A DNA stretch of 64,000 nt, taken from assembly GCA_965248115.1 (NCBI GenBank), contig CBDFII010000004.1, positions 465,999 to 529,998 on the forward strand, in the 5' to 3' direction. The stretch is from Dehalococcoidia bacterium. GTDB lineage: Bacteria > Chloroflexota > Dehalococcoidia > Lucifugimonadales > CBDFII01. The notes beneath the pieces are model-generated. The model saw nothing but the letters and a program-made list of their open reading frames with translations, had not been told where the DNA came from and searched no databases. Positions 16,739-54,177 of the stretch are shown one piece after another. The first letter of the stretch is position 1; each line of letters opens with the position of its first letter. Position numbers and translations under genes: made by a program.

Positions 16739-17425
16739 ATGTCCCAATACCATCGATTAGGCCAAAATAGTAGGAGACGAGGGCTGTTAGCTACGGCATC
16801 AAGGCTTGTAGTATTCGGCCCACTTATGGTGATCCTTGCGGTGGCTTGCACCGGCTCCGAGAGCATCACTATCCCTTCCCAGCCCACAATACAAGAGGAA
16901 TCCACAGAGAAGAGCTTCCCAACACCCTCACCCCCATTGGACACCACAACAGCTACCCAGCATTCCGTGGGGACAAGGGTAGCTGACCTTGCACCCCCCT
17001 TCACCTTCACCCTTTCCAACGGCACGCTGGTGAGCCGGGATTCTATCAAGTCTGATGGAAACCCGGTGATGCTCTTCTTCTATACCCCTTGGTGACCCAC
17101 CTGTCGCGCCGAGTTACGGTCGCTTAAAACCATCTACCCCCAGTACCAAGCCCATGTGGACTTTTATGCCATATGTGTGGACCCAACGATGAGCCAGGCC
17201 GAACTGGAGGAAGATAAGGCACGTCAAGGCTACCCCTGGCCGGTGGTTGAGGCTCCGCGACAGTTGATCACTGACCTGCGGGTCACCGTACGATCCACTA
17301 AGGTGGCAATAGGGAGAGATGGAGTTATCACCTTCAGGACGGGGTACGGCGTCGGACCCAGAGAGGGTTGGGATCAACTCTTCCAAAGGCTTATAAAGGG
17401 GTCTGGCGACGGCTCAGGATACTAG
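16739..17425 (+). CDS. TlpA/ResA-like thiol:disulfide oxidoreductase lipoprotein with in-frame UGA (candidate selenoprotein, W-U-P-T-C)
   Basis: Track ORFs 16739..17095 and 17156..17425 share a frame; only TGA (17093..17095) and 20 sense codons lie between them. The read-through gives ...NPVMLFFYTPW-U-PTCRAELRSLK..., the thioredoxin-fold WCxxC site. Lipobox LAVAC at the N-terminus. Confidence 0.7.
17106..17123 (+). promoter_or_regulatory. Candidate bacterial SECIS hairpin
   Basis: GCGCCG / CGG(U)CGC: 6 G-C-rich base pairs with a bulged U and an AGUUA apical loop, starting 10 nt after the UGA. Confidence 0.45.
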
Positions 17426-20745: not shown

Positions 20746-21270
20746 ATGCAGATAAAGGTCCTGGTCCTTTACGATAGCCACGGCCCACTGATGGATAGTC
20801 TAGCCACAGAGGTGGCCGAGGGAGTCTCCAAAGTAGAGGCGGCCCAGGCAATCATAAGACGGATACCTCAAGCCACACGTCAGGATATTCTGGCTGCCGA
20901 CGCCATCATCGTGGGCTCGCCTAACTGGAGTGGCATCACGGGCGCTTTCAAAAGCTGGCTGGACGACCAGGGCGATCTTTGGGAGGAAGGAGTGCTGGCG
21001 GGCAAGGTGGGCGCTGCCTTTGCTACCGGACGAGGGCGTCATTCGGGCCTGGAATTTACCCTTCTGAGCCTCATTCACTGGATGCTAGCCTGCGGAATGA
21101 TTATTGTGGGCCTACCGTGGAGCCAACGGATGCGAATTTCGGGCTCCTATTACGGGGTCACCGCCGCGGGAGAGGTCTCATTGGAAGATCGGGAGCAGGC
21201 ACAGCAGTTAGGAGAGAGAGTGGCCCACCTGGCAGTCCGACTAGTCTCAGGTAAGGATAGCTCAGACTGA
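20746..21270 (+). CDS. Flavodoxin-like fold NAD(P)H-dependent oxidoreductase (WrbA-like)
   Basis: 174 aa. Has I.VLY.S..G....LA..V..G and D.II.GSPN. plus the FK...D pattern of flavodoxin-like FMN reductases. Its TGA stop overlaps the next ATG (TGATG). Confidence 0.7.
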   Translation: MQIKVLVLYDSHGPLMDSLATEVAEGVSKVEAAQAIIRRIPQATRQDILAADAIIVGSPNWSGITGAFKSWLDDQGDLWEEGVLAGKVGAAFATGRGRHSGLEFTLLSLIHWMLACGMIIVGLPWSQRMRISGSYYGVTAAGEVSLEDREQAQQLGERVAHLAVRLVSGKDSSD

Positions 21271-21722
21271 TGGTGCAACAGGGACAACAGGCACCTCATT
21301 TTCGCCTGGCTACCACCAGGGGGGACGTTTCTCTGGAGGAGCTACTCCAGAATAATAAGTTGATCCTCACCTTCTACATGGAGGACAACACTCCCGGTTG
21401 AAACCAGCAGCTCTCCTCCTTTAAGGAGGAATACGATACGGTAAGGGAGCTGGGAGCTCGGGTGTTGGCGGTTAGCGCCGACGACCAAGAGTCTCACCGG
21501 GTATTGGAAAGCCGCCTGGGTACCTTTCCCTTCCCCCTAGCCAGCGACCCCTCCCTGGAGACAGTCAAGCTCTACTGTACGTTAAGCGACGACGGCAAAC
21601 GAAGTAACAGGGCGGTGTTTGTTATTGACACCGACGGTACGGTAATTCACTCCATCCCCTGGTTCCAGCCGGGCAACCCCTCTCAGCTCCTGGAGGTCTT
21701 TACTGCCCTCGGTTTGGAATAG
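21270..21722 (+). CDS. Bcp/AhpC-TSA family peroxiredoxin with in-frame UGA at the peroxidatic Cys (candidate selenoprotein, T-P-G-U)
   Basis: The ATG at 21270 opens a frame that reads MVQQGQQAPHFRLATTRGDVSLEELLQNNKLILTFYMEDNTPG-U(21399..21401)-NQQLSSF and continues in frame into track ORF 21462..21722. FY..D.TPGC is the Prx active-site motif. Confidence 0.7.
21414..21430 (+). promoter_or_regulatory. Hairpin downstream of the Prx UGA (possible SECIS, non-canonical loop)
   Basis: UCCUCCU-UUA-AGGAGGA, 7 bp, starting 12 nt after the UGA. An outer helix CAGCUCUC (21408..) / GGGAGCUG (21445..) could enclose it. No G in the apical loop. Confidence 0.3.
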
Positions 21723-23319: not shown

Positions 23320-23739
23320 TTAGCCGCCCTGAGTTGGGCGCCTTGCCCTGAGCCGCCACATCAGCACAGAGGCCATCAATACTGCCATGGCTATGAGACC
23401 CCACTGGGAGAGGGAGGGGATGGGAGTAGGAGTAGTGGTAGGTACAGGTGCGGCTGCCACTGAAAAGCACGCAGAGAACTCCGACGTATTGTTGTTTGGG
23501 TCGGTGGCTGTCGCTGTGATAAAATCGCCCACCCCCACCGTGGCTCCGAAGGTAGCTGTGAAGCTGGCATTGCCGTTTCCGTCGGTGGTTACATCCTTAA
23601 AGCCGAAGAAGGTCTCGCCCTCACCGTTGCCGGAAGGATCGCAGGCGCTGTTGGAGAAGAACTCCAGCCTGAACTGGGTGCTGGCCGTACTGTTAAGCGT
23701 GCCCTCGATGGTAGTGCTCCCACTCTCGGCAGAGGTCCT
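23320..23739 (-). pseudogene. C-terminal fragment of a beta-helix surface protein with IPTL-CTERM sorting tail (separated from its N-terminal part by the IS)
   Basis: The 3' part of track ORF 23320..24174 reads RTSAESGSTTIEGTLNST...FRLEFFSNSACDPSGNGEGE...TPTPIPSLSQWGLIAMAVLMASVLMWRLRARR. This is the IPTL-type motif, then a TM helix, then a basic tail. Confidence 0.65.
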
Positions 23740-23743
23740 TGAT

Positions 23744-25392
23744 GAGCCTGTCTCAGAAGTCTGATCTGGCAATGGGTATGTCGTCAGGTGTAGCTTCGAA
23801 GCGAGATCAATTGGGGGGATACTGATATGCCGCTTCGACCGATGGGCCGAGAGCAGATGTGGATGTTGCCGCCGACGCTTGACGAGTTGTTGCCGTTGGA
23901 TCATCCGGCGCGGTTCGTCGCCGAGTTCGTCGATGCTCTGGGTCGAGATGCCTGGGCGGAGCTTGGCGTGGACATAGACGGGGAGGTCCTGGGAGCGCCA
24001 GCCTACCATCCCCGTGCACTGTTGAGTGTATGGCTGTACGGCTTCATGACCGGTGTGCGCTCCTGCCGGAAGCTGGAGGCGGCCTGCCGCGACCAGATTC
24101 CGTACCTGTGGTTGACCGGGTGGCAGCATCCCGATCACAACACTCTGTGGCGGTTCTACAAAGGGCATCGGCACGCCATGAGGAAGCTGTTCGAGCGCTC
24201 GGTGCGCACGGCAGTGGCCATGGCGTTGGTGGATCTAGCGGTGCAGGCCGTGGACGGGACGAAGGTGGTAGCCAACGCCTCAGTGAACAGGAGCTATGAT
24301 GCTGTGGGACTGAGTGGTCTGTTGGAGCGTCTCGAGAAGGCGATAGCCGACCTTGAGGCACAGAACGAAGGGGGAGAGGATGCTCCTGTTGCCCATCTGC
24401 CAAAAGAGTTAGCCGACAAGGAGGTCTTGAGGGACCGGGTGAGGCAGGCGATGGCCGACCTCGGGAGTCAGAAGCGCCACAAGCGGATCAACCTGACCGA
24501 CCCGGAGGCCCGACTGATGAAGGGCAGGCAGGGGATCGTGGCCGGCTACAACGTCCAGGCTATGGTCTCACCCATGGAGATCGATGGAGAAGCGGCCGGC
24601 ATGGTGGTCACAGCCGTGGACGTGGTTGATGCGGCCAATGACAATGCCCTGCTGGTGCCGATGGTCGAGCAGGCGGAGGAGACGACCGGGACGAGGGTGC
24701 CGATGACATTGGCCGACGCTGGCTACTTCGCCGTGAGCCACCTAGCGGAGTGCGACCGGCGAGGCCAGCAGGTGGTGGTGTCAGAAGCACGGCAGCGGTT
24801 CCTCACAGACGCGTATCACAAGGACCGATTCACCTATGACGAGCAAAGCGACAGTTTTACGTGTCCACAGGGACGGAGGCTCAAGTTCCTTCGCATCCAA
24901 CATACGAATGGAGTTCCGCTGCGTCTGTACCGGGCCTCTGGAGCCGTCTGCCAGGCGTGCCCGGCCTTCGGAGTCTGTACGAGAGCCCGCGAGACCGGCC
25001 GCAGTCTGGCGATAGGGCCCCATGACGGAGTGCTACGCCGCCACCGCGCCTGGAGGACCACGTTAGCCGCCAAAGAGGCGTACCGGCTGAGAAAGCAGCT
25101 GGTCGAGCCGGTCTTCGGAATCATCAAGGAACAACAGAGGGCACGTAGGTTCCTGCTGCGTGGCCTCGCCAACGTGGCGGCCGAGTGGACCATGTTGGCC
25201 ACCGCCTTCAACCTGCGCACCCTCTACCGGGTGTGGAGCTCCTCCCTCCATCTTCAACCCTCTACCTGACGGTCTGGAACCTTGTCATGTCTCGTGAGCT
25301 GAGGCCATTGACAGCTATCCCTCACCCCATCGTCTGCGTAATACTTCGCGTCGGAGTACGCCTGCCAACGGACGTCATTCTGAGACAGGCTC
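23744..25392 (+). mobile_element. IS element copy 1 (IS1182/IS5-like), 1649 bp
   Basis: Bounded by perfect 15-bp inverted repeats GAGCCTGTCTCAGAA (23744..23758 and the complement of 25378..25392). Differs from copy 2 (52451..54099) at only 2 positions that I could find. Confidence 0.8.
23827..25269 (+). CDS. IS1182/IS5-family DDE transposase
   Basis: 480 aa. The N-terminal LPP.LDELLP.DHPARFV and YHP..LL.V.LYG...G..S.R.LE motif is the transposase InsH-like N-terminal domain. A DDE region and a C-terminal Cys-rich segment follow. Confidence 0.85.
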   Translation: MPLRPMGREQMWMLPPTLDELLPLDHPARFVAEFVDALGRDAWAELGVDIDGEVLGAPAYHPRALLSVWLYGFMTGVRSCRKLEAACRDQIPYLWLTGWQHPDHNTLWRFYKGHRHAMRKLFERSVRTAVAMALVDLAVQAVDGTKVVANASVNRSYDAVGLSGLLERLEKAIADLEAQNEGGEDAPVAHLPKELADKEVLRDRVRQAMADLGSQKRHKRINLTDPEARLMKGRQGIVAGYNVQAMVSPMEIDGEAAGMVVTAVDVVDAANDNALLVPMVEQAEETTGTRVPMTLADAGYFAVSHLAECDRRGQQVVVSEARQRFLTDAYHKDRFTYDEQSDSFTCPQGRRLKFLRIQHTNGVPLRLYRASGAVCQACPAFGVCTRARETGRSLAIGPHDGVLRRHRAWRTTLAAKEAYRLRKQLVEPVFGIIKEQQRARRFLLRGLANVAAEWTMLATAFNLRTLYRVWSSSLHLQPST

Positions 25393-26601
25393 TACTGGAA
25401 AGTTTTGTAGGTTGTTGGCGCCGGAGTCGCCGTCCCCTACGTCGTTGGGGGTTACCCCGTCGGCACCCAGATCGATGCCCAACTCCCCGTTGGAGAATAT
25501 AGAGTTGCCCAGAATGGCGTTGCCGGTGCCATTTTCTACGAATATTCCGTCTACGTCGTTGAATGCGATGACGTTGGAGGAGCCGAGGAGAATTCCTCCG
25601 ATGGTGTTGTTGCCACCGGACGGCCCGGATCCGGTAGGAATGCCTAGATGAACCCCGTGGCCCGTGTTAGGCAACGGAGCAGCACCTGACACGTCTGTCC
25701 CAATGTGATTGCCTTGCACCAGGTTTCCTGAGACGTTGCCAAAAATCCAGACGCCATCACCATCGATCCCTGAAATTACATTAGCCGCCCCTGCCGTTGT
25801 TCCGCCGATGACGTTGTTGCTGCCCCCTTTTACATTCACGCCGAAAGGAGCCTTGAATACACCTACCGTGCCAGTGGCGTCTGTGCCGATAAAATTACCT
25901 TGCACAGTGTTTCCATTTGTCACGATAAGGACACCCCCGAACAAAACATTTCGAGCACCCGGAATGGAACCACCTACAGTATTATTAGATGACCCGCTTG
26001 TGACTACTATGTCTCCCTGATTATTGCTCAGCACTGTAGTGCCGTTGACATCGGTGCCGATAAAGTTCCCTTCGACGATATTACCGTCGTTCGTTTCCAG
26101 TCTAATGCCAGTGCCACTAAAGCGGTTAATGACCAGCCCGCGTATAGTGCTGTTCCCGGCATTGATTCTGAGTCCGTTAACAAATGGAGAGCCAGCGTTG
26201 ATCCCGTCCAGCTCGATCTTCAGAACGACGTTAATGCCAGACCCGGGGGGATTCGTGTTGGGGCTGGCCCCTGGTTGGGTGAACCCGTCAATGATCACCG
26301 GATTGGTGATGGTCGGCAGGCCAGATGCTGGCTGGATGGTGAATGCAGTCGTAGAAGCGTTGAAGCCAAGGTCGCTGGTGGTGATGTTGAAGGCGATGGT
26401 GTCTGTCCCCGCTAAGGCATTGGCAGCGGTAATCGCCTCCCGTAGTGAGCAATCGGCATCACAGACACCGTCGTTAGTATCGGCGGTCTTGGTAACGGTG
26501 AAGGTTGTCTGGGCCTGGACAACGCCCTGCGAGGCCACTAGCAATATCGCCGCCAAGCCAACAGCGATCAAGATGCCAATGAGAATCCTAGCTCTGCTCA
26601 T
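25393..26601 (-). pseudogene. N-terminal part of the beta-helix surface protein (interrupted by IS copy 1)
   Basis: Signal peptide, a CSLREAI motif, then many parallel beta-helix repeats (G..I.GN.IG.D..G). The real sequence ends ...DSGANNLQNFPV at the IS boundary; the remaining 5 codons of the track ORF are IS sequence. Confidence 0.7.
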
Positions 26602-32768: not shown

Positions 32769-33007
32769 CGCTCTCCCTCTGATCTATGCCCACCCGGATT
32801 GTCATCTTGACCGATATCGCTTCGATCTTTAGACGTCGATTCTATATCATCTAAGGTATCGGAGAGGTTACCCACCGTCTGCTGCAACTCCCGCACTATC
32901 CGTCCTGCGTTACGAGCTGCATGTATGGTCTGGGCAGGCCCCAGTATTAACAGACCCACCAGCACCACTATCAAAAGTTCCAGGGGCCCTATACCTAAGA
33001 AGTCCAA
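32765..33007 (-). CDS. TatA/TatB-like translocase protein
   Basis: LDFLGIGPLELLIVVLVGLLILGP... is a TatA/B-type N-terminus. A TTG start at 33007 preceded by GGGGAG is preferred over the track start at 33043. It overlaps the tatC start by 4 nt. Confidence 0.65.
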   Translation of the reverse strand: MDFLGIGPLELLIVVLVGLLILGPAQTIHAARNAGRIVRELQQTVGNLSDTLDDIESTSKDRSDIGQDDNPGGHRSEGER

Positions 33008-34914
33008 GTTCTCCCCTCTCTCGCTTGAGCGCACAGGGAGCACTTGGAAGGGTCTTCGATAGAAATCCTATCATTTTGAACTAGGTTATTCTCCTTAAGA
33101 AGCTCCAATAGAGTGCAAAGGGGCAGCCCCATGATGTTGGTATAGCAACCCTCTATCCGAGCCGCGGGGCGCAATACCGAATCTTGGACAGCGTAAGCGC
33201 CTGCTTTGTCCAAAGGCTCGCCGGACGCCACGTAATCCTCCAGCTCTTGAGACGAGAATTCCCGCATAAAGACCGTGCTAGTCCGGCTGGCAGTGACCGA
33301 TCGCCCTGTGGCACTATCTATCGCCGCCACCCCAGTTACCACCCGATGCTCGCTCCCTCGCAGCTTTTGTAGCATTTGCCTGGCTTGCGTCGAGTCCTCA
33401 GGTTTGCCCAGAACCTCACCATCCAACAACACCACCACCGAGTCCGCTCCCACCACAAAGCCTCTGTCAAACCCTTGCGCCACCGATGAGGCCTTAGCTA
33501 GTGCCAGACGTACTACCAGCTCCTCCGGTGTCTCCCCGGGGCGAACCTCTTCTTCCACATGGGGGTCCACCGTTCTAAACGGTAGTCTCAGAAGGGGCAG
33601 AAGTTGCTGGCGGCGAGGCGAGGTCGAAGCCAGCACCAGGGGCAGCTTATCTACACTTTTGGATTCAGGGCCAGCCTCAGGCATCGCAGAAGATTTGGAT
33701 GAATCCAGGTCGACGGAACCGCTAGTCCCCTGATAAGCCAGAGTGGCTACGCACTCCACGAGATGAGTCTGAGGGAACATATCGATAGGTTGCACCTGCT
33801 CCAGAGAAAAGGGGCCATCGCAAAGCAAGCGCAGATCTCGAGCCAGGGTAGCAGGGTCACACGAGACGTACGCTACACGTGTGGGCCCCAGTTGGGCCAG
33901 AGTTTCCAGAGTCTTGGGATGACAGCCCGTTCTGGGAGGGTCCAGGATCACCCCATCTGGCCTTTGAGCCATTCCCGCCAGCACCTCTTCCGTCTTTCCC
34001 TGCAAAAACTCTACGTTACTTATTCCCTCAGCGTTCACCAAGGCGTCTTGCACAGCTGACTTCGACTCCTCTATGGCAATGACCCTCTCAGTATAAGGAG
34101 CCAGCAGGATGGCGAAGGTGCCCACCCCAGCATAGGCATCCACCAGGAGCTCACTTCCCGTTAACCTTAGGGCCTCTTTCACTACCTCCACCATCCTTTC
34201 GGCCTGAGCAGTGTTCACCTGAAAAAAGGAAGAGGAGGAAATGCGAAAGGAGCGACCCGCCAGGGTGTCCCAGTAATGTTTCTGACCTGAAGGAAGGGGG
34301 AAATCGCCACTACGAAAGGTGGGCTGAATAAGAAAGTCATCGGTAGCCTCACCGTGGCGGATGGATGCTTGGGTGGTCTCACCACACTTGCCTTGTAGCT
34401 GCTCCAGGGCACCGTTGATCCAGGGATTCATCAGCATGCACTGACTGATGACCACACGTTGCTGCGTCTCTCGGTTCACGTAACACAGCTCACCATTCGC
34501 CCCCACCGTCAGACGTGCATGGTTTCGATAGTAATATTGCTTAGGTGACAGTATGACTGGTGCTACCGGTGGCCCGGAGAAGCCTCCAATGCGGCAAAGG
34601 GCGTCTACCACTTTCTGGCGCTTTAGCTCCAATTGGTGCTGATAATCTATGTGCTGCCACTGGCACCCGGTGCATGGACCAAAGTAGGGACATGGAGCCT
34701 CAACACGTTGAGAGGAAGGACTAAGCACCTCCACCACTCTAGCCGCTACATACTTGCGGCGGCTTTTAAGCACCTCTGCTATCACCTCTTCACCAGGCAC
34801 TCCTCCAAAGACGAACATTAGCTGGCCATCGTAGGAGGCATGGGCCTCTCCCAGTCTCCCCCAACCATCAAGTAGCAGCCGTACTCGCTCCCCAACCTCT
34901 AATCGTCCATTCAT
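32995..34914 (-). CDS. Fusion protein: RlmD/RumA-type m5U RNA methyltransferase (TRAM + Fe-S + SAM MTase) with C-terminal Maf nucleotide pyrophosphatase
   Basis: Single 639-aa frame. Residues 1-400 carry CPYFGPCTGCQWQH, DAYAGVGTF, DPPRTG and YVSCDPATLARD. Residues ~430-639 carry LVLASTSPRRQQLL, GADSVV and AGAYAVQD, which are Maf hallmarks. No stop codon between the two parts. Confidence 0.8.
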   Translation of the reverse strand: MNGRLEVGERVRLLLDGWGRLGEAHASYDGQLMFVFGGVPGEEVIAEVLKSRRKYVAARVVEVLSPSSQRVEAPCPYFGPCTGCQWQHIDYQHQLELKRQKVVDALCRIGGFSGPPVAPVILSPKQYYYRNHARLTVGANGELCYVNRETQQRVVISQCMLMNPWINGALEQLQGKCGETTQASIRHGEATDDFLIQPTFRSGDFPLPSGQKHYWDTLAGRSFRISSSSFFQVNTAQAERMVEVVKEALRLTGSELLVDAYAGVGTFAILLAPYTERVIAIEESKSAVQDALVNAEGISNVEFLQGKTEEVLAGMAQRPDGVILDPPRTGCHPKTLETLAQLGPTRVAYVSCDPATLARDLRLLCDGPFSLEQVQPIDMFPQTHLVECVATLAYQGTSGSVDLDSSKSSAMPEAGPESKSVDKLPLVLASTSPRRQQLLPLLRLPFRTVDPHVEEEVRPGETPEELVVRLALAKASSVAQGFDRGFVVGADSVVVLLDGEVLGKPEDSTQARQMLQKLRGSEHRVVTGVAAIDSATGRSVTASRTSTVFMREFSSQELEDYVASGEPLDKAGAYAVQDSVLRPAARIEGCYTNIMGLPLCTLLELLKENNLVQNDRISIEDPSKCSLCAQAREGRTWTS

Positions 34915-35041: not shown

Positions 35042-35068
35042 TTGACCAGAGGCACCATTCAGTATAAA
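35042..35068 (+). promoter_or_regulatory. Candidate promoter for trxA (and possibly selC)
   Basis: TTGACC (35042..35047), a 15-nt spacer, then TATAAA (35063..35068). The spacer is short, hence the low confidence. Confidence 0.3.
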
Positions 35069-35107
35069 CTGGGGCAAGCTGCTACTTCAGTTGCACCTTT
35101 ATAGCCA

Positions 35108-35131
35108 CTTTCTAATCTAATCATTAGAAAG
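35108..35131. promoter_or_regulatory. Perfect 9-6-9 palindrome (operator-like) between the candidate promoter and the trxA RBS
   Basis: CTTTCTAAT-ctaatc-ATTAGAAAG, ending 22 nt before the trxA ATG. Confidence 0.4.
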
Positions 35132-35152
35132 AGAAATTGCGGGAGGAGAATA

Positions 35153-35482
35153 ATGGCCAAACCCTATGCTGTGAGTGACGCCGATTTTTCGGAGAATGTG
35201 GAAAATGCCAAGGTGCCTGTGCTGGTTGACTTCTGGGCCGAGTGGTGTATGCCCTGCAAGATGATCGCTCCAATAGTGGACGAGCTGGCTGAGGAGTACG
35301 ACGGCAAGGTCAACTTTGTCAAGGTGGACGTAGATTCCAGCCCTTCCACTGCTACCAAGTACGGTGTGCGCAGCATCCCTACCCTGCTGATCTTCAAGGA
35401 GGGCAAGCCCGTTCAGCAGGTGGTGGGGGCTGTGCCCAAAAGCGCCCTTAAGGAGAGAATCGAGGCCGCGCTGACCTTGTAG
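35153..35482 (+). CDS. trxA: Thioredoxin
   Basis: 109 aa with VLVDFWAEWCMPCK (WCxPC active site), an IPTL cis-Pro loop and a GGGAGGAG RBS. Confidence 0.9.
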   Translation: MAKPYAVSDADFSENVENAKVPVLVDFWAEWCMPCKMIAPIVDELAEEYDGKVNFVKVDVDSSPSTATKYGVRSIPTLLIFKEGKPVQQVVGAVPKSALKERIEAALTL

Positions 35483-35507
35483 ACCTCAACACTAGTCATT
35501 ACCTAGT

Positions 35508-35603
35508 GGGGGTGGATGGGGCCCGGTGGCTCTTGCGGACTTCAAATCCGTCGTGCCTCGTTAACCCGGGGTAGGTGGGTTCGACTCCCTCCCACTCCCG
35601 CCA
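35508..35603 (+). tRNA. selC: tRNA-Sec (anticodon UCA)
   Basis: 96 nt folded by hand. 8-bp acceptor stem (GGGGGUGG/CCACUCCC), 6-bp D stem with 4-nt loop (GGGGCC-CGGU-GGCUCU), anticodon loop CUUCAAA and a long variable arm (GCCUCG-UUAACC-CGGGGU). The 5-bp T arm has a UUCGACU loop, followed by G-CCA. The layout is colinear with the E. coli selC tRNA. Confidence 0.9.
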
Positions 35604-37163: not shown

Positions 37164-38582
37164 TTGGCAGATAACGACATAGCCTTGATGGCGCACCTGC
37201 TGCGGCGTGCCGGCTTCGGGTCCACCAGAGACGAGCTTGAGGCCTACTGTGCCAAGGGGTACGAGGCCACCGTAGAGGAGCTACTTCACCCTGAGACCCG
37301 GCCTCCTGCCATTGAAGAAGACCTGGTGGGCCGGTACTTACCCGAGTTTTCGGACTTGGGAGCCTTCGAGTCCAGCAGAGGATATTGGATGTACCGGATG
37401 ATTAACACCAAGCGTCCTCTGGAGGAGAAGATCGCCCTCTTCTGGCACGGAGTCCTGTGCTCAGGCGACTCTAAGGTAGATTCCCCTAGAATGATGAGCA
37501 TTCAGGTAGACATGTTTCGCCAGCATGGCCTCGATAGCTTCCGCGATCTGCTGGTCAAGCTGTCCAGGAACCCCACCATGGTGTACTTCCTAGACAATAG
37601 CGAGAGCCACAAAAACGCTATCAACGAGAACTATGGGCGGGAGCTTTTGGAGCTCTTCTCCATGGGCGTGGGGATGGATGGCCACCCCAACTACACCGAG
37701 GACGACGTTAAGGCCTGTTCCCGTGCCTTCACCGGCTGGAACGTAGCTCCCACCCTTCCAGTATTCCCTTTTGGCCGCACCCCCTGGCAGTTCCTGTACA
37801 ACTACTCGGACCACGACGAGGGTGTGAAAACGTTCCTGGGAGAGACGGGACGCTGGAACGGCGAGGATGTCATCGACATCATCGCGCAGCAGCCAGCTAC
37901 CGCCCGGTTCGTCTGCCGTCACCTGTACAACTTCTTCGTGGCCGATGAGGTTCAGGTTCCAGCATGGCAGGACACACCACCCCAGGACCCCGAGGCGATA
38001 CGTACGCTGGAGAAGGCCTTCGTGGAGCACAACTACGATATCCGTTCGGTATTGCGGGTGCTGTTCAACTCCGACTTCTTCAAGGAGGCCCGTTTCGCCA
38101 AGGTCAAGAGCCCTGCAGAGGTGGTGGCGGGCACCATGCGGCTGGTCCAGGACTTTACCTCCCCCAAGTTTGGCCTCCACAACATCGCCATAGAGGACAC
38201 CTATATGGGTCAAACCCTGCTTAACCCCCCCAGCGTGGAGGGATGGCACACAGGCAGGGAGTGGATCGACAGCGGCACTCTGGTGGAGCGCATCAACTTC
38301 GTTGCTGACCAGGTGGGCAATACCGACTTACCCGGTGTGAAGGCTATCGTCGATCGCCTTGCTGCCCAGGGCGCCATGTCTCCCCAGCAGTTCGTGGAGA
38401 GCTGCCTTGACCTGATGGGCTGCGTGGAGGTCACCGAGAAGACCCGCGACCAGCTCATCTCCCACGCCACCCGGGCTGGCGAGCTGCGAGGGGATAGCGG
38501 AGAGCACAAAGAGCACTTCGCCTCCCAGGTGGGGGAGATGCTCCAGCTCATCGTGTCCACCGGCGAGTACCAGTTCGGATAA
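37164..38582 (+). CDS. DUF1800 family protein
   Basis: 472 aa. ALMAHLLRRAGFG, LFWHG, NENYGRELLELFSMG and SRAFTGW are DUF1800 hallmarks. No signal peptide. TTG start. Confidence 0.85.
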   Translation: MADNDIALMAHLLRRAGFGSTRDELEAYCAKGYEATVEELLHPETRPPAIEEDLVGRYLPEFSDLGAFESSRGYWMYRMINTKRPLEEKIALFWHGVLCSGDSKVDSPRMMSIQVDMFRQHGLDSFRDLLVKLSRNPTMVYFLDNSESHKNAINENYGRELLELFSMGVGMDGHPNYTEDDVKACSRAFTGWNVAPTLPVFPFGRTPWQFLYNYSDHDEGVKTFLGETGRWNGEDVIDIIAQQPATARFVCRHLYNFFVADEVQVPAWQDTPPQDPEAIRTLEKAFVEHNYDIRSVLRVLFNSDFFKEARFAKVKSPAEVVAGTMRLVQDFTSPKFGLHNIAIEDTYMGQTLLNPPSVEGWHTGREWIDSGTLVERINFVADQVGNTDLPGVKAIVDRLAAQGAMSPQQFVESCLDLMGCVEVTEKTRDQLISHATRAGELRGDSGEHKEHFASQVGEMLQLIVSTGEYQFG

Positions 38583-38601: not shown

Positions 38602-39735
38602 ATGGCATCCTCAAAGGACCCCGTCCTGGCGGTTATCTCCCTGGCGGGGGGTAACGATTTCATGAACACCATCATCCCCTACAACAATCCCCTGTATAGG
38701 GACTACCGCCCCAACCTGGGCATCCCCGAAGAGGAGATTCTGCCCATCGATGACCAGGTGGCCTTCAACCCCAACCTGGAGCCCCTCAAGGAGCTCTACG
38801 ATCAGGGTAAGGTGGCCATCATCCTGGGGGTGGGCTATCCCAACCCCAACCGCTCTCACTTCCGCTCCATGGACATATGGCAGACCTCGGAGCCCGACAA
38901 GGTAGGCACCGAGGGCTGGCTGGGCCGGGCCATTAGGGAGCTGGACCCCAACAAGGAGAATGTGCTCACGGGGGTCAACTTCGGCCGGGGCCTGCCCAGG
39001 GCCATGGCAGCACCGGGGGTACCCGTGGCCTCGGTGGGTAACCTGGCCACCTACGGCGTTCTCACCGGCATCGCCGGTGAGGAGCAGCGGGCCGAGGCCC
39101 TGGAGGTCTTCTCCCGTATGTATGCCCCCGCCATCGGCACAGGCCCGGTGATAGACTACCTGTGGCAGACGGGGATGGATGCCCTCAAGGGCGCCGATAT
39201 CCTGAAGACGGCCCCTGAGAAGTATACCTCCAATATAGAGTATGGCCCCGATGTGGTATCCCAGGGGCTCAAGGGCATGGCGCAGGTGCACACCGCCGAC
39301 CTGGGCTCCCGTATCCTCTTCACCACCTCTCCCAACAACGCCTTCGACACCCACGCCAACCAGGCCCCCATCCACACCATGCTGTGGCGTAACCTCTCCA
39401 GGGCCATCGCCGACTTCTACCAGGACCTGAAGGAGCACGACCACAACCAGGAGGTGACCCTCCTCATGTTCAGCGAGTTCGGGCGCCGGGCCAGGGACAA
39501 CGGCACGGGCACCGACCACGGCACGGGGGGTGTGGCCTTCGTCATCGGCGACCGGGTCAAGGGGGGACTGTACGGTGAGTACCCCTCTCTGGAGCAGGAC
39601 AAGCTGGAGGACGAGGGGGACCTGCTCCACAACGTAGATTTCCGCAGCATGTACTCCACCATTCTGGAGAGGGGGCTGGGTCTGGACCCAGTGCCCATCG
39701 TGGGGGGTAACTTCGAGCAGTTGGACTTTCTGTAG
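38602..39735 (+). CDS. DUF1501 family protein (sulfatase/alkaline-phosphatase-like fold)
   Basis: 377 aa. GGNDFMN, YPNPNRSHFRSMDIW, GWLGR, FDTHANQ and SEFGRR..DNGTGTDHG match DUF1501. It starts directly at the conserved core with no twin-arginine leader. Confidence 0.85.
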   Translation: MASSKDPVLAVISLAGGNDFMNTIIPYNNPLYRDYRPNLGIPEEEILPIDDQVAFNPNLEPLKELYDQGKVAIILGVGYPNPNRSHFRSMDIWQTSEPDKVGTEGWLGRAIRELDPNKENVLTGVNFGRGLPRAMAAPGVPVASVGNLATYGVLTGIAGEEQRAEALEVFSRMYAPAIGTGPVIDYLWQTGMDALKGADILKTAPEKYTSNIEYGPDVVSQGLKGMAQVHTADLGSRILFTTSPNNAFDTHANQAPIHTMLWRNLSRAIADFYQDLKEHDHNQEVTLLMFSEFGRRARDNGTGTDHGTGGVAFVIGDRVKGGLYGEYPSLEQDKLEDEGDLLHNVDFRSMYSTILERGLGLDPVPIVGGNFEQLDFL

Positions 39736-39946: not shown

Positions 39947-42150
39947 TCAGGCAGGCATCACCTCGGGCACTTCCTTGTCCCCAACCTGATCCACTTCAAC
40001 GCGAAAGTCGGGCAGCCATTCGAGCCACGAGGGCAGATACCAGTTCCACTTGCCCAGAAGCTTCATGGCGGCAGGCACCAGAACCATCCGGACGATGGTG
40101 GCGTCGAGGAGTATAGCGATCCCCAGGCCGAAGCCCATCTGCTGCAATCCGATTATGTCGCCAGCGGCAAAGGACCAAAACACAGCGACCATGATGAGGG
40201 CCGCTCCAGTGATGAGGCTCCCTGTGGATCGAATGCCGAAAGCCACCGAACCGGTGTTGTCCTGGGTCTGGTCGAAACGCTCCCGGATACGGCTGAGGAG
40301 AAAGACGTGATAGTCCATGGATAGGCCAAACAGGATGGCAAATTGTGTGAATATGCCCAGATCCTCACCCACGCCTTTCTGAAAGACAAGAACCAGGATT
40401 CCATAGGTCGCTCCCACGGAAAGTAGATTCAGTATAATGGCTTTAAGCGGCACGATAATTGATCGGAAAACGAGCATTAGCAAGAAGAAGCTTATGCCCA
40501 GGACGAAAGGGAATATATAGAACACGGCATTGTTGGCCGTGTCGAAGAAGTCCATGTTATATGCGGTCTCACCTGTGACACTTACTGTCGCAGGAACGCC
40601 TGCAAAGGCGGCAGGGACATACTCGCGGCGGAGTCTGCTGATAGCGGCTTTGGACTCATCCTCAGCGGAATCACCAGCTACCGGCACGGTAAGCAGCGCC
40701 ACAGTCCCGGCCTTGTTCACCTCCAGAGGAGCCGCCAAGGAGAATGCGTTGACTATGTCCGTCGCCATGGCCGCCTTTAGGCTCTCGATAGCCCCTTGCA
40801 CAGGCTGAGAGGCAATATCGCCCTCAATGACTATCTGCGCCGGCGTCACATTTCCCGCGGAGAATTTCGCGTCAAGAACATCGAAACCCTGCTTGGACCG
40901 CAGGTCGTCGGGCAGGTGCTGATCCCCTGGAAGCCTGTACTGAGATCGAAGGCGGGATAGGCAGCGGCGATAAGGAGACCTCCGGCCAGCAAAAGGCTAA
41001 TCACAGGCCGTCGCATGACTCCATGAGGAATCCTGTCCCAGAAGCCACCGGCGCTCTGCTCGTCGAATCTGGTCTGTGCCCTACCGATCCAAGGGATAGA
41101 CAGCCGATTGACCCCATCCCCCATGAGACTGAGTACAGCAGGCAGAAGGGTCATGGCGGCCGTTACTGAGGTGATCACCACCACAATAGCGCCGATGCCA
41201 AGACCGATAAAGACGTTGAAGGGTACCAACAACATGCCAATGAGGCCCAGAACCACGGCCATGCCACTGAAGAGGACGGCCCGGGTGGCCGTCCCCCCAG
41301 CCCGCCCGATCGCATCGATCTTCTCCAGGCCCCGGGCCCGCTCCTCCCGGTAACGGGCAACGATAAAGAGGGAGTAGTCGATGCCGACGGCGAGGCCGAT
41401 CATGAACATGATGTTTTGGACGAAAAAGGACAGCGCGAAGGCCTGTCCGACTATGGAGACAATCCCCATTGCAACGATGATGGAGACGACAGCCAGCACA
41501 ATGGGCACCAGCGCTGCCACCAGGGCCCCGAACACCACCACGAGAATGATGAGGGCAGCGGGCACTCCAAAGATCTCTCCCTTCTCGAGTCCCTCCTGAG
41601 CCACCTCCTGAAAGTCCTCACCAACAGTGGCCTGGCCGAATATCAGAACCTCGAAATCGCCCTGCTTATTGGCGTCCACTACCTCGAGGGCCTTGTGGAT
41701 GTTGTCTGTAGCGTCGTCGAAGTCTCCGGCCATAATGAGGGGCATAATGGTGGTGAGGCGGTCCTCTGAGACCAAGAAGGGGGCTCCTGTCTGATAATAA
41801 TTGATAAACGTTCCTTCTCTGATAATCTCGGGCCCCAACGCCGCAACTTTCCCATAGAAAGCCTCAACGAACTCTTGAAAAGCAGGGTCGTCAACGGTGA
41901 GGGTATCCGACTGGACGATGAGCACCTCGTTGGTGCTGAAGGGGAGGCCGCGCAACTCTACTATCAGGTCCACCCCACGCTGGGACTCGGGGGTGTTGGT
42001 GAAGACGAACTAGGTAGTGACAGCATCGTCAAAGAGGCTGGCAACGAGGCCGACAGCCACAACCACAATCAACACCCATATGCTGATGGTGGTCCATGGC
42101 CGTGTCGCGCATCGGCGAGTCAATGATTCAGAAGAGATCCCTAGCGCCAT
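39947..42150 (-). pseudogene. MMPL/RND-superfamily transporter, disrupted (in-frame TAG plus frameshift)
   Basis: An ATG at 42150 with an AGGAGGAGG RBS opens MALGISSESL...DDAVTT-TAG(42010..42012)-FVFTNTPESQRGVDLIVELRG, continuing into track ORF 40846..41973. Near 40915 the frame shifts (GIST | LPDDLRSKQGFDVLDAKFSAGNVTPAQIVIEGD) into ORF 39947..40849. Confidence 0.7.
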
Positions 42151-46621: not shown

Positions 46622-47605
46622 TTAGGAGCGTTTCTGGTACACCTGGAGGCGATCGCGATTACAGTCAATCACGACGATACGCCCCTCATCATCAACCTCA
46701 ACGGCATTGGGGTGCCAGAAGCTCTTCCAGGATGTCAAGTCCGGCACCAGGTCCATCTGTTTTGCCATGTCGGGGTTAGCGCTTAGTTGCGCTTGACCCC
46801 ATTTGGAGAGCACCCCATTCCCAGTGAAAATCGTAATGAACATGCCCTCAGGGGTGAACGCCTGTACCCTGTGATTAAGCCAGTCGGTGACATAGAAGTC
46901 TCCGTCTTTATCTACAGCCACATCTGTAGGACGGTTAAACTGGCCCATCTCCTTACCCGATGTGCCAAAGCTGGCCGTGAAAGTGCCGTCAGCTGTGAAC
47001 TTCTGAATACGGTCGTTACGCCAGTCGGCGACCCACACGTCGCCTTTCTTGTCTATGGTGAGGCCCCAAGGGAGGTTGAACTCTCCATCAGCGTTGCCTT
47101 GCCTACCCCACTTGGCCAGGAACTTCCCCTCTTTGTTGAACACCTCTATCCTGTTGTTGGCACTGTCCACCAGGTAGAGGTTGTCCTCCTTATCGAAGCA
47201 GAGACCTGTGGGCTTGTTTATCTCTCCATCGGCACTACCCTTTGAGCCCCAGTGGTCGAGAAAATTTCCCTGACCGTCGAAAATCGAGATACGGTTCAGG
47301 TAGTCGTCGCTAACATAGGCGTTCCCCTTGCTGTCCAGGGCAATGGAAGAGGGCCAGATGAATTGCCCTCTGCCGTCACCGTATCGGCCAAACTCGCTTA
47401 TATATTCCTCGTCCAAGGTGCAAATAGTCACCCGTACTCCCGTAGTTTCATACTCTGCCGAATGGTTAAGGACGTATATCTTCCCTCCCTCACCCAGGGC
47501 CAAGTCCACAGGATCTCTGAACCCTTGTCCCGATGCCCCGTTCCGCCCAATGGTGTGGCTGTACTTATATAGTCTCGTAGTTACACCAAAGAATACGCTA
47601 GCCAT
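46622..47605 (-). CDS. NHL-repeat beta-propeller protein
   Basis: 327 aa with six NHL-like blades (GQF..P..IA.D..GN.YV.D..N.RI..F). No signal peptide. Lies directly downstream of a DUF1800 gene. Confidence 0.8.
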   Translation of the reverse strand: MASVFFGVTTRLYKYSHTIGRNGASGQGFRDPVDLALGEGGKIYVLNHSAEYETTGVRVTICTLDEEYISEFGRYGDGRGQFIWPSSIALDSKGNAYVSDDYLNRISIFDGQGNFLDHWGSKGSADGEINKPTGLCFDKEDNLYLVDSANNRIEVFNKEGKFLAKWGRQGNADGEFNLPWGLTIDKKGDVWVADWRNDRIQKFTADGTFTASFGTSGKEMGQFNRPTDVAVDKDGDFYVTDWLNHRVQAFTPEGMFITIFTGNGVLSKWGQAQLSANPDMAKQMDLVPDLTSWKSFWHPNAVEVDDEGRIVVIDCNRDRLQVYQKRS

Positions 47606-49126: not shown

Positions 49127-49274
49127 CACCTCGCCTCCAATAGATCCAAGGAGCTTTGGATAGAGGGACGTCAACGGTTATCAATCTAGCGCTTGCAATT
49201 TCCCATGTCAAGGGAGCCAACCAGGATCCCCTTGTAGAGATGCTTGAGCCCACAGAGTGTGATCGGTGCTCTGG

Positions 49275-49790: not shown

Positions 49791-49968
49791 TAGGTTGCCT
49801 CCTAACGAAGAGAATTTGGGGCTATGATACATCAAGAGCGACTTCAGATAAATTCCTTGAGATACCATGGGACGTAAGGATTGACAGAGAATAGAGCTGC
49901 GAGTACCTTTAAGGTACCGTGTGGGCCGTCGAAACGAATCGGTACAGGCTAAAAGGGGAGGTACTAAG

Positions 49969-52413: not shown

Positions 52414-52450
52414 CCCCCCGCACCAATTCAAATCGAAAAAGGTCCTTGAT

Positions 52451-54099: not shown

Positions 54100-54177
54100 T
54101 GATATATACTAATACTCGAACTCGGTTTTCAGCAGATTTGGTTTATAAGATATGAAGACCCTTAGCGAAGTCATTCC

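What the first reader, a model, noticed from the sequence alone, without database searches (positions are those of the whole stretch)
35508..35603. Bacterial-type tRNA-Sec with 8/5 acceptor/T-arm geometry: direct evidence that UGA is recoded in this organism
The hand fold gives an 8-bp acceptor stem, a 6-bp D stem with a 4-nt loop, anticodon UCA, a 6-bp variable-arm helix, a 5-bp T stem (one U-U mismatch) and an encoded CCA. This is the diagnostic tRNA-Sec architecture. It turns the two in-frame UGA codons at 17093 and 21399 from possible errors into plausible Sec codons. It also means standard ORF calling will truncate further selenoprotein genes elsewhere in this genome.
Basis: partly seen in the sequence, partly recalled or inferred. 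Interest (0 to 1): 0.6.

Follow-up and report, generated by a model that had tools for sequence, protein, structure and literature searches.

The report
Genuine bacterial selenocysteine tRNA gene
The window carries a real, canonical bacterial selenocysteine tRNA gene, and two nearby antioxidant-type genes really do use an in-frame UGA as selenocysteine, which is correct but ordinary biology for this kind of bacterium.

Summary
Confirmed. ARAGORN calls tRNA-SeC (anticodon TCA) at exactly 35508..35603(+). Rfam tRNA-Sec scores 68.5 bits against a threshold of 47. The hand fold holds: 8-bp acceptor stem, 6-bp D stem with a 4-nt loop, UCA, long variable arm (7 bp, not 6), 5-bp T stem with one U·U, G73, encoded CCA. 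Covariation in 69 distinct related genes supports the acceptor, D and variable helices.

Both UGAs are well-supported Sec codons:
- 17093 lies in a TlpA/Prx-like lipoprotein (W-U-P-T-C). 47 full-length homologues have Cys there. Six distinct homologues have TGA at the same codon. A covarying hairpin with an AGUUR loop follows; three Cys forms lack it.
- 21399 replaces the peroxidatic Cys of a PrxQ-like peroxiredoxin (TPG-U). In species-representative genomes the codon is TGC/TGT in 49 and TGA in 3. Its downstream hairpin lacks the consensus loop G.

UGA also terminates 15 of 48 genes here, so this is site-specific recoding, not reassignment. No selA, selB or selD lies in the window, and the rest of the genome could not be reached. 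The source looks like an uncultured Dehalococcoidia-type Chloroflexota. trxA sits directly upstream of the tRNA, as it does in 18 relatives. This is a new member of a known kind, of low interest.

The parts
35508..35603 (+). selC, the tRNA-Sec gene (96 nt including G73 and the encoded CCA). It has 8/5 acceptor/T geometry, a 6-bp D stem with a 4-nt loop, and a 7-bp variable-arm helix.
   Evidence: ARAGORN. Rfam RF01852 at 68.5 bits against a gathering score of 47. Covariation over 69 distinct relatives.
35542..35544 (+). Anticodon TCA (UCA), which reads UGA.
   Evidence: (anticodon at position 35) and the sequence.
35153..35482 (+). trxA (thioredoxin, WCMPC motif). Its stop codon lies 25 nt upstream of the tRNA on the same strand. 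Co-transcription with the tRNA is likely but is an inference.
   Evidence: TIGR01068 at 137 bits; Pfam PF00085. trxA lies directly upstream on the same strand, with an 11-157 nt gap, in all 18 relatives that have a trxA hit. Promoter-like sites occur only upstream of trxA (35042-35070 and 35125-35154); none lies between trxA and the tRNA.
16739..17425 (+). Gene for a TlpA/Prx-like thiol:disulfide oxidoreductase selenoprotein (228 aa, Sec119, motif W-U-P-T-C). The N-terminus carries an RRR motif, a hydrophobic stretch and a Cys, which suggests a lipoprotein or exported protein (inference).
   Evidence: Translation. Pfam AhpC-TSA at 46.7 bits against a cut-off of 26. 47 full-length homologues have WCPxC at this position.
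17093..17095 (+). In-frame UGA read as Sec (codon 119).
   Evidence: Six distinct homologous loci carry TGA at the same codon. Full-length homologues carry Cys there.
17106..17123 (+). bSECIS-type hairpin GCGCCG-AGUUA-CGG(U)CGC. It starts 13 nt after the UGA and has GU in the apical loop.
   Evidence: Fold. Alignment A2 shows 88% of cells paired, 4 of 6 pairs compensatory, and 0 of 500 shuffles reaching the covariation score. Local folding energy is -7.9 to -14.0 kcal/mol in seven TGA forms against -1.5 to -6.6 in three Cys forms.
21270..21722 (+). Gene for a PrxQ/BCP-like peroxiredoxin selenoprotein (150 aa, Sec44, motif T-P-G-U). Its start codon overlaps the stop of the upstream wrbA-like gene.
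   Evidence: Translation and sequence. Pfam AhpC-TSA at 95.1 bits. Homologues are 50-65% identical, and every one that spans the site has Cys at the U position.
21399..21401 (+). In-frame UGA read as Sec (codon 44, the peroxidatic position).
   Evidence: At this codon, species-representative genomes carry TGC in 46, TGT in 3, TGA in 3 (L006, L026, L042) and TCA in 1.
21414..21430 (+). Hairpin UCCUCCU-UUA-AGGAGGA, 15 nt after the UGA. It is a candidate SECIS but atypical, because it has no G in the apical loop.
   Evidence: Fold. A hairpin sits at the same place in L006 and L026 and a weaker one in L042. Folding energy does not separate TGA forms from TGC forms (p = 0.16).
20746..21270 (+). wrbA-like NAD(P)H:quinone oxidoreductase, translationally coupled to the peroxiredoxin gene (context only).
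   Evidence: NF002999 and TIGR01755. The stop/start overlap is visible in the sequence.

Best explanation
35508..35603 is the functional selC gene (tRNA-Sec, anticodon UCA) of an uncultured Dehalococcoidia-type Chloroflexota bacterium.

By analogy with the established bacterial pathway, the steps are as follows. All of them are inferred here, not shown.
1. SerRS charges the tRNA with serine, using the long variable arm and G73.
2. SelA converts the serine to selenocysteine, using selenophosphate made by SelD.
3. SelB delivers the charged tRNA to ribosomes paused at UGA codons that are followed by an mRNA hairpin (bSECIS).

Two such targets lie in the same window. One is a membrane-anchored TlpA/Prx-like thiol:disulfide oxidoreductase (UGA at 17093, W-U-P-T-C). 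The other is a PrxQ-like peroxiredoxin (UGA at 21399, T-P-G-U). In both, Sec replaces the catalytic Cys. Elsewhere UGA remains a stop codon.

The tRNA gene sits 25 nt downstream of trxA in a conserved trxA-selC pair and is probably transcribed with it.
For: Shown by tool results:
- The tRNA-Sec call and its covariance-model score.
- All structural hallmarks are present in the sequence. They are supported by covariation: D stem 100% paired with 5 of 6 pairs compensatory, variable arm 7 of 7 compensatory, acceptor stem 4 of 8 compensatory.
- G73 occurs in 69 of 69 relatives and an encoded CCA in 68 of 69.
- The synteny Lpd-TatC-RlmD/Maf-TrxA-selC is conserved in relatives whose proteins are only 50-60% identical. 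This argues for a maintained core gene.
- UGA 17093: Cys in 47 full-length homologues, TGA in six distinct homologues, and a covarying hairpin with a conserved AGUUR loop that three Cys forms lack.
- UGA 21399: the site is Cys in every homologue that spans it and TGA in three other species.
- No other credible Sec codon was found in the window, and UGA terminates 15 of 48 genes.

Criteria taken from the literature:
- The bacterial tRNA-Sec hallmarks: 8/5 fold, 13-bp AT stem, 6-bp D stem with a 4-nt loop, G73, CCA encoded in 93% of bacterial genes (PMC5330540).
- The bSECIS model (PMC13188914).
- Prx (TxxU) and Prx-like thiol:disulfide oxidoreductase (UxxC) are listed selenoprotein families.
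Against: - No selA, selB or selD lies in the 64-kb window.
- The T stem has a U·U mismatch and the 27:45 position is unpaired, so the tRNA has fewer canonical pairs than E. coli selC. Both features are conserved in its relatives.
- The hairpin after 21399 lacks the consensus loop G. It is not energetically distinct from the same region in Cys forms.
- There is no expression or protein-level evidence.
Confidence: 0.92

Rival explanations
1. The gene is a relic or non-functional tRNA-Sec in a lineage that has lost the Sec trait. On this reading the two UGA-interrupted genes are pseudogenes or truly short ORFs.
For: No sel genes occur in the window. The tRNA has U·U and U·C mismatches. Public gene calls treat the UGA as a stop (P0013).
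Against: - The mismatches are clade-conserved rather than random decay. U·U occurs in 15 of 69 relatives, and 27:45 is a Watson-Crick pair in none of the 69 (a single G·U). The remaining stems covary.
- Both ORFs stay open and conserved on both sides of the UGA.
- The same codon is TGA in several independent genomes and metagenomes.
- A hairpin specific to the TGA forms is maintained by compensatory changes.
Confidence: 0.04
2. The gene is a tRNA-Sec look-alike that inserts another amino acid at UGA. Candidates are selC*-type tRNA-Cys(UCA), which delivers Cys, or an allo-tRNA that delivers Ser.
For: Such tRNAs share the long variable arm, the long D stem and the 8-bp acceptor stem, and can carry a UCA anticodon (PMC5389517). 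Cys at these sites would also give active enzymes.
Against: - selC* tRNA-Cys has a U73 discriminator and an 8/4 branch. Allo-tRNAs are 8/4 or 9/3 with 12 layers.
- This gene has G73 and 13 layers in 8/5. It scores as tRNA-Sec well above threshold.
- selC* was reported from anaerobic Firmicutes, Thermodesulfobacteria, Nitrospirae and Proteobacteria, not from Chloroflexi.
- No selB*-like or cysS*-like gene lies next to it.
Confidence: 0.02
3. UGA is reassigned genome-wide to a sense codon (for example Trp or Gly), and the tRNA is incidental.
For: In-frame UGAs occur in otherwise intact genes.
Against: - 15 of 48 family-supported genes in the window end at UGA at the expected length.
- Only two in-frame UGAs are credible, and both fall exactly on a catalytic Cys position.
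- No tRNA with a UCA anticodon other than tRNA-Sec is present in the window.
Confidence: 0.01

Closest known systems
Escherichia coli selC (tRNA-Sec), the reference bacterial 8/5 tRNA-Sec
   Same: As described for bacterial tRNA-Sec in PMC5330540, it shares the 8-bp acceptor plus 5-bp T branch, 6-bp D stem with a 4-nt loop, UCA anticodon, long variable arm, G73 and encoded CCA. From my own recollection of the E. coli sequence (not tested here), the D loop CGGU, anticodon loop CUUCAAA and T loop UUCGACU are also identical.
   Different: Primary sequence is too divergent for blastn: no match was found in 5,426 E. coli genomes. This gene has a U·U mismatch in the T stem and only 5 canonical anticodon-stem pairs. 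It is linked to trxA rather than standing alone. No island-type repeat of its 3' end occurs in the window.
Non-canonical tRNA-Sec variants reported in Chloroflexi: 8/4 with bulge 51a (PMC5389517) and the 7/5, 12-bp form in Dehalogenimonas (PMC5330540)
   Same: Same phylum-level neighbourhood, same anticodon and same G73.
   Different: The window's gene keeps 13 layers with equal-length T-stem strands, so it has a 1x1 U·U mismatch rather than a bulge. Its 8th acceptor pair is a Watson-Crick G-C, which makes it the canonical 8/5 type. In 47 of 69 retrieved relatives that 8th pair is a G·G, G·A or C·A mismatch.
Sec-containing peroxiredoxin (Prx, PF00578, TxxU), for example PrxU of Eubacterium acidaminophilum
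   Same: AhpC-TSA fold, with Sec at the peroxidatic position in a T-x-x-U motif.
   Different: The match to the PrxU model NF040737 is weak (46 bits against a cut-off of 270). The protein belongs to a PrxQ/BCP-like subfamily found almost only in Chloroflexota, in which Cys forms dominate. The Pro of the PxxxTxxU motif is absent (Met at -7). The downstream hairpin lacks the loop G.
Prx-like thiol:disulfide oxidoreductase and thiol:disulfide interchange selenoproteins (UxxC), described in Geobacter, Syntrophus and others (PMC1794560, PMC13188914)
   Same: Thioredoxin-fold AhpC-TSA/Redoxin domain with UxxC replacing CxxC. Cys-containing homologues exist. A bSECIS lies directly after the UGA.
   Different: This subfamily is only remotely similar to characterised ResA, TlpA and DsbE (about 30 bits). 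It carries an N-terminal lipoprotein-like signal and a long linker. Among the 150 best cluster representatives, apparently truncated Sec forms (62) outnumber full-length Cys forms (47).

Membership tests
Bacterial tRNA-Sec (Rfam RF01852; criteria of PMC5330540) | Covariance-model score above the curated threshold | tested here: met
   68.5 bits against a gathering score of 47, full-length match. ARAGORN also calls tRNA-SeC.
Bacterial tRNA-Sec (Rfam RF01852; criteria of PMC5330540) | UCA anticodon in a 7-nt loop | tested here: met
   CUUCAAA loop with UCA at 35542-35544.
Bacterial tRNA-Sec (Rfam RF01852; criteria of PMC5330540) | 13-layer acceptor plus T branch in the 8/5 arrangement | tested here: met
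   8 canonical acceptor pairs and 5 T-stem layers, of which 4 are canonical and one is U69·U83. In relatives the acceptor is 91.5% paired and the T stem 95.7% paired.
Bacterial tRNA-Sec (Rfam RF01852; criteria of PMC5330540) | 6-bp D stem with a 4-nt D loop | tested here: met
   Positions 11-16 pair with 21-26; the loop is CGGU. Relatives are 100% paired, with 5 of 6 pairs compensatory.
Bacterial tRNA-Sec (Rfam RF01852; criteria of PMC5330540) | Exceptionally long variable arm | tested here: met
   7-bp helix with a 6-nt loop (47-66). All 7 pairs show compensatory changes in relatives.
Bacterial tRNA-Sec (Rfam RF01852; criteria of PMC5330540) | G73 discriminator and, usually, an encoded CCA | tested here: met
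   G93 followed by CCA. G73 occurs in 69 of 69 relatives and CCA in 68 of 69.
Bacterial tRNA-Sec (Rfam RF01852; criteria of PMC5330540) | Serylation by SerRS, conversion by SelA and binding by SelB, with selA, selB and selD present in the genome | not testable with these tools
   No sel genes lie in the window. The source contig could not be retrieved.
selC*-type tRNA-Cys (PMC5389517) | U73 discriminator (CysRS identity element) | tested here: not met
   The discriminator is G.
allo-tRNA (PMC5389517) | 12-bp branch in an 8/4 or 9/3 arrangement | tested here: not met
   13 layers in 8/5.
Peroxiredoxin selenoprotein (PF00578, TxxU) | AhpC-TSA domain with U at the peroxidatic Cys of the T-x-x-C motif; homologues carry Cys there | tested here: met
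   PF00578 at 95.1 bits. The motif is T-P-G-U. C44 is nearly invariant in the alignment. In genomes the codon is TGC/TGT in 49 and TGA in 3.
Peroxiredoxin selenoprotein (PF00578, TxxU) | [quoted passage not shown] | tested here: inconclusive
   Spacing (19 nt) and energy (-11.3) fit, but the loop UUA or UUUAA has no G. The loops in L006 and L026 do contain a G. Folding energy does not differ from the Cys forms (p = 0.16).
Prx-like thiol:disulfide oxidoreductase selenoprotein (PF00578, UxxC) | Thioredoxin-fold AhpC-TSA/Redoxin domain with UxxC in place of CxxC; Cys homologues exist | tested here: met
   PF00578 at 46.7 bits against 26, and PF08534 at 35.2 bits against 26.6. The motif is W-U-P-T-C. 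47 homologues have W-C-P-x-C.
Prx-like thiol:disulfide oxidoreductase selenoprotein (PF00578, UxxC) | bSECIS fitting the consensus model | tested here: met
   The loop AGUUA has G at position 2 followed by U. Spacing is 16 nt, at the lower limit. Energy is -7.9 (local) to -9.4 kcal/mol. The stem has 3+3 bp around a bulged U in the window and 6-7 continuous bp in relatives. It covaries and is absent from three Cys forms.

The most novel reading that the evidence does not exclude
Two things go beyond 'another selC', and the evidence does not exclude either.

(a) selC may be transcribed together with trxA as a conserved two-gene unit in this Chloroflexota lineage. The two genes are on the same strand with an 11-157 nt gap in all 18 relatives with a trxA hit. 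That arrangement would tie the supply of tRNA-Sec to thioredoxin expression.

(b) The W-U-x-x-C TlpA-like lipoprotein may be a predominantly Sec-containing, probably extracytoplasmic selenoprotein family that gene callers truncate systematically. Among the 150 best cluster representatives, 62 look like post-UGA fragments and 47 are full-length Cys forms. If so, selenium use by aerobic or marine Dehalococcoidia would be broadly under-annotated.
Probability: 0.35. Interest if true: 0.4.

Novelty: new member of a known kind. Interest (0 to 1): 0.2.

Why it matters
The practical consequence is for annotation. This genome needs Sec-aware gene calling. Its peroxiredoxin and TlpA-like genes are currently represented in public protein sets only as fragments, and the same error affects many relatives.

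Biologically, the result adds one more Chloroflexota lineage in which the selenoprotein genes seen so far are thiol-dependent oxidoreductases; no formate dehydrogenase gene was found in the 64-kb window. It gives two clean Sec/Cys family pairs with SECIS hairpins for comparative work. It does not change any concept of how Sec decoding works.

Tried and rejected
- Single-sequence folding of the tRNA is uninformative. The z-score is -0.8, and the MFE structure mispairs the anticodon and T arms.
- blastn of the tRNA against E. coli genomes found no match, so a tool-based comparison with the annotated selC was not possible.
- Exact-sequence look-ups of TrxA, P0013 and P0275, meant to reach the source contig and its sel genes, all returned 'not on record'. 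Cluster look-up gave no names or accessions.
- The GTDB representative scan did not contain the source genome; the best Prx match was 59% identical.
- The word-indexed search with the full TlpA-like protein returned nothing at E <= 1e-5. The post-UGA fragment taken from the window worked.
- I tested whether the hairpin after UGA 21399 is specific to TGA forms. It is not significantly so (p = 0.16, n = 4 against 50). The conserved peptide SFKEE itself encodes self-complementary RNA.
- I looked for an attachment-site-like repeat of the tRNA 3' end, as would mark a genomic island. None was found within 3 mismatches.
- I considered the two IS1182 copies flanking the region as a composite transposon carrying selC. 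I rejected this because the Lpd-TatC-RlmD/Maf-TrxA-selC order is conserved in distant relatives.
- A relaxed scan for further UxxC, CxxU, TxxU and similar motifs, and for UGA-bridged ORFs, found nothing credible beyond the two sites.

Full report
**1. The observation**

ARAGORN finds exactly one tRNA in the 64-kb window: tRNA-SeC at 35508..35603 on the + strand, with anticodon tca at position 35. A gathering-threshold scan of the whole window against Rfam 15 returns a single hit. It is RF01852 tRNA-Sec at 35508..35599, 68.5 bits against a curated threshold of 47, E = 6.9e-12, covering model positions 1-91 without truncation.

Reading the sequence reproduces the hand fold:
- Acceptor 1-8 with 85-92, eight canonical pairs including G4·U89.
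- Linker AU.
- D stem 11-16 with 21-26, six pairs, closing a CGGU tetraloop.
- Anticodon stem 28-32 with 40-44, with a U27·C45 mismatch below it, and loop CUUCAAA.
- Variable-arm helix 47-53 with 60-66.
- T stem 68-72 with 80-84, with a U69·U83 mismatch, and loop UUCGACU.
- G93 as discriminator and an encoded CCA.

The Rfam consensus is drawn as 9/4, which is why cmscan flags the junction pairs. The sequence itself fits the bacterial 8/5 arrangement. Single-sequence thermodynamic folding is not informative: z = -0.8, and the MFE structure mispairs the anticodon and T arms.

**2. Is the fold more than chance?**

I fetched relatives with a pattern that fixes only the anticodon arm and the core of the T arm. 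Eighty loci were returned, and ARAGORN called tRNA-SeC in 77 of them. These give 68 distinct sequences plus the window's own.

On this alignment the 8/5 cloverleaf has 95.8% of cells paired. Seventeen of 31 pairs have compensatory changes, and 0 of 500 shuffles reach any of the five measures. Sliding the 3' partners drops pairing to 41-61%.

The helices not fixed by the search pattern carry the signal:
- D stem: 100% paired, 5 of 6 pairs compensatory.
- Variable arm: 7 of 7 pairs compensatory.
- Acceptor stem: 4 of 8 pairs compensatory.

G73 is invariant (69 of 69), CCA is encoded in 68 of 69, and the D loop is YGGU.

Two peculiarities of the window's gene are lineage traits rather than decay. 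The U·U in the T stem is shared by 15 of 69 sequences, including all the close relatives. Position 27:45 forms a Watson-Crick pair in none of the 69 (a single G·U), so this group has a 5-bp anticodon stem. Conversely, the 8th acceptor pair is a purine-purine or C·A mismatch in 47 of 69 relatives but a Watson-Crick G-C in the window.

These features match the published definition of bacterial tRNA-Sec: 8/5 fold, 13-bp AT stem, 6-bp D stem with a 4-nt loop, very long variable arm, G73, and CCA encoded in 93% of bacterial genes (PMC5330540).

**3. The two UGA codons**

Re-reading all six frames with UGA as sense gives 95 UGA-bridged open frames. Only two fall inside recognisable genes at a meaningful residue, at 17093 and 21399. 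A relaxed motif scan adds none.

*UGA 17093.* The ORF 16739..17425 reads ...NPVMLFFYTPW-U-PTCRAELRSLK.... With U replaced by C it passes Pfam's AhpC-TSA and Redoxin thresholds (46.7 and 35.2 bits). It hits ResA, StoA and DsbE only weakly.

An exhaustive HMMER search with the post-UGA part found 192 relatives at E <= 1e-3. Of the best 150, 47 are full-length proteins with Cys at the position aligned to U (W-C-P-x-C). Their N-termini look like lipoprotein signals. Another 62 are roughly 95-aa proteins that begin within 20 residues after that position.

I retrieved DNA for six such fragment proteins, which gave eight loci and six distinct sequences. Every one has an in-frame TGA at the same codon ([W/T]-TGA-x-x-TGY), preceded by an open, homologous reading frame.

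Thirteen nucleotides after the UGA all seven sequences form a hairpin with a 5-nt loop: AGUUG in five, AGUUA in the window, and CGUUG (foldable as a 3-nt loop) in L065. The window's hairpin is GCGCCG-AGUUA-CGG(U)CGC. On the alignment 88% of cells pair, 4 of 6 pairs show compensatory changes (for example GCGCUG/CAGCGC, GCUCCG/CGGAGC, GCUGCCG/CGGCAGC), and 0 of 500 shuffles reach the covariation score. Slid registers give 19-60%.

Local folding energy is -7.9 to -14.0 kcal/mol in the seven TGA forms. It is -4.0, -6.6 and -1.5 in three Cys-form genes of the same family. That is complete separation; by my own calculation the exact one-sided rank probability is 1/120.

[quoted passage not shown] Its spacing of 16 nt is at the lower limit. 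I regard this UGA as a Sec codon with high confidence.

*UGA 21399.* The ORF 21270..21722 starts at an ATG that overlaps the TGA stop of a wrbA-like quinone oxidoreductase gene. It reads ...LTFYMEDNTPG-U-NQQLSSFKEEY.... It is a PrxQ/BCP-like peroxiredoxin (PF00578 at 95.1 bits; NCBIfam PrxQ and peroxiredoxin models).

There are 181 homologues at E <= 1e-5, up to 65% identical. In the alignment of 19 of them, Cys at the U position is nearly invariant.

A scan of one genome per GTDB species found 58 loci, almost all labelled Dehalococcoidia, Chloroflexota or SAR202. The catalytic codon could be read in 53 of them. It is TGC in 46, TGT in 3, TGA in 3 (L006, L026, L042) and TCA in 1.

A 7-bp hairpin (UCCUCCU-UUA-AGGAGGA) begins 15 nt after the UGA. 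Hairpins lie at the same place in L006 and L026, and a weaker one in L042. However, the window's loop has no G. The peptide SFKEE itself encodes self-complementary RNA, and folding energy does not distinguish TGA forms from TGC forms (p = 0.16).

The Sec assignment here therefore rests on the catalytic position, on the Cys/TGA alternation among orthologues, and on the presence of the tRNA. The SECIS is plausible but atypical.

**4. Recoding, not reassignment**

Of 48 genes in the window supported by a family match, 15 end in TGA, 17 in TAG and 16 in TAA. UGA is thus a normal stop except at the two marked sites.

**5. Surroundings and source**

No selA, selB, selD or other selenium-related gene occurs in the window. 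Essentially all ORFs of at least 80 aa not overlapped by an annotated gene were scanned.

The gene content is:
- several luciferase-like/F420-type (LLM-class) oxidoreductases and several MFS transporters;
- alpha/beta-hydrolases and an epoxide hydrolase;
- four DUF1800 paralogues, next to a DUF1501 or NHL-propeller gene;
- a 2-oxoacid dehydrogenase operon;
- tatC and an rlmD-maf fusion.

Upstream of selC, 25 nt away on the same strand, is trxA. Promoter-like sites lie upstream of trxA only.

In relatives, tblastn shows the order Lpd-TatC-RlmD/Maf-TrxA-selC conserved at 50-60% protein identity. trxA lies directly upstream on the same strand in all 18 loci with a trxA hit, with gaps of 11-157 nt. 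Downstream genes are not shared. There is no repeat of the tRNA 3' end and no integrase nearby.

Two 1.66-kb IS1182 copies, 99.4% identical, lie 28.7 kb apart on either side. The conserved synteny argues against a mobile composite.

The public collection holds a 100%-identical Lpd (P0275). It also holds the 85-aa post-UGA fragment of the peroxiredoxin (P0013, which differs only at its start codon). Both are on a 788,017-bp NCBI/ENA contig. That contig could not be fetched, so the rest of the genome, and its sel genes, remain unexamined. The nearest Lpd is 85% identical, and the only taxon label among near hits is 'Dehalococcoidia bacterium'.

**6. Mechanism**

*Shown:* a canonical tRNA-Sec gene; two genes with UGA at catalytic Cys positions; and one covarying SECIS that is specific to TGA forms.

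*Inferred from the established bacterial pathway:* SerRS charges the tRNA, SelA and SelD convert Ser to Sec, and SelB reads the hairpin and delivers Sec-tRNA to the UGA. Thioredoxin, encoded next to selC, is the usual reductant of PrxQ-type peroxiredoxins. The N-terminal signal of the TlpA-like protein suggests that it acts outside the cytoplasm.

**7. Rivals**

- A relic tRNA with pseudogenised targets is contradicted by covariation, conserved synteny and recurrence of the TGA in independent genomes.
- A selC*-type tRNA-Cys or an allo-tRNA is excluded by G73 and the 13-layer 8/5 branch (criteria from PMC5389517).
- Genome-wide UGA reassignment is excluded by stop-codon usage.

**8. Comparison with known systems, and verdict**

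tRNA-Sec, Sec-peroxiredoxins (TxxU) and Prx-like thiol:disulfide oxidoreductase selenoproteins (UxxC) are all catalogued. Chloroflexi are known to have selenoproteins (PMC1794560; PMC13188914).

What is mildly new is the conserved trxA-selC pair, the reduced base pairing in this clade's tRNA-Sec, and the extent to which the W-U-x-x-C lipoprotein family is truncated in public protein sets.

Interest is 0.2.

Noticed in passing
window 23725-25399 and 52432-54106: Two copies of an IS1182-family element lie in direct orientation, 28.7 kb apart, on either side of the selC region. Each is about 1.66 kb with a 480-aa transposase, and they are 99.4% identical. The terminal inverted repeats are GGTCCTTGATGAGCCTGTCTC ... 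GAGACAGGCTC. Conserved synteny of the genes between them argues against a composite transposon.
   Followed up: partly
window 35153-35603; loci L076, L079, L083, L086, L090, L094, L096, L098, L100, L108, L109, L111, L117, L131, L135, L143, L144, L147: trxA lies directly upstream of tRNA-Sec on the same strand in the window (25 nt gap) and in 18 of 18 relatives with a trxA hit (11-157 nt gap). This suggests a conserved trxA-selC transcription unit.
   Followed up: partly
alignment A3 (tRNA-Sec from L070-L149): In 47 of 69 related tRNA-Sec genes the 8th acceptor pair is a G·G, G·A or C·A mismatch. Position 27:45 is a Watson-Crick pair in none of the 69 (one G·U), which gives a 5-bp anticodon stem. 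These tRNAs have 13 layers but only 11-12 canonical pairs in the acceptor/T branch.
   Followed up: partly
proteins P0125-P0274; loci L059-L066: The W-U-x-x-C TlpA-like lipoprotein family appears to be widely mis-annotated. Of the 150 best cluster representatives, 62 are fragments that start just after the Sec codon. L065 and L066 encode a two-domain protein whose first domain has CxxC and whose second has UxxC. That protein is called as a 274-aa gene ending at the UGA.
   Followed up: partly
window 110-754, 37164-38582, 47711-49174 (-), 49921-51375: Four DUF1800 paralogues, 67-80% identical at the DNA level in parts, occur in one 64-kb window. Each lies next to a DUF1501 gene (38602-39735) or an NHL-repeat propeller gene (859-1980, 46622-47605, 51394-52413).
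   Followed up: no
window 32995-34914 (-): A single 639-aa ORF fuses an RlmD-type 23S rRNA m5U methyltransferase with a Maf nucleotide pyrophosphatase. tblastn matches to query residues 18-596 (18-639 in L076), which extend well into the Maf part, occur in six related metagenome loci.
   Followed up: partly
window 18557-20632 (repeats 18618-18851 and 20100-20307): A 691-aa ORF with a C-terminal amicyanin/cupredoxin-like domain contains long Pro/Thr-rich tandem repeats with periods of 57 nt and 30 nt.
   Followed up: no
window 20746-21722: The stop codon of the wrbA-like NAD(P)H:quinone oxidoreductase gene overlaps the peroxiredoxin start codon (TGATG at 21268-21272). This suggests a translationally coupled redox pair.
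   Followed up: no
window 17414-18193 (-): A DedA/VTT-domain membrane protein gene converges on the 3' end of the TlpA-like selenoprotein gene and overlaps it by about 12 nt.
   Followed up: no
window 39947-41973 (-): An MmpL/RND-type transporter is split into two overlapping ORFs of 375 aa and 300 aa, whereas the family's full-length profiles are about 900 aa or more. This could be a frameshift or a natural two-part form.
   Followed up: no
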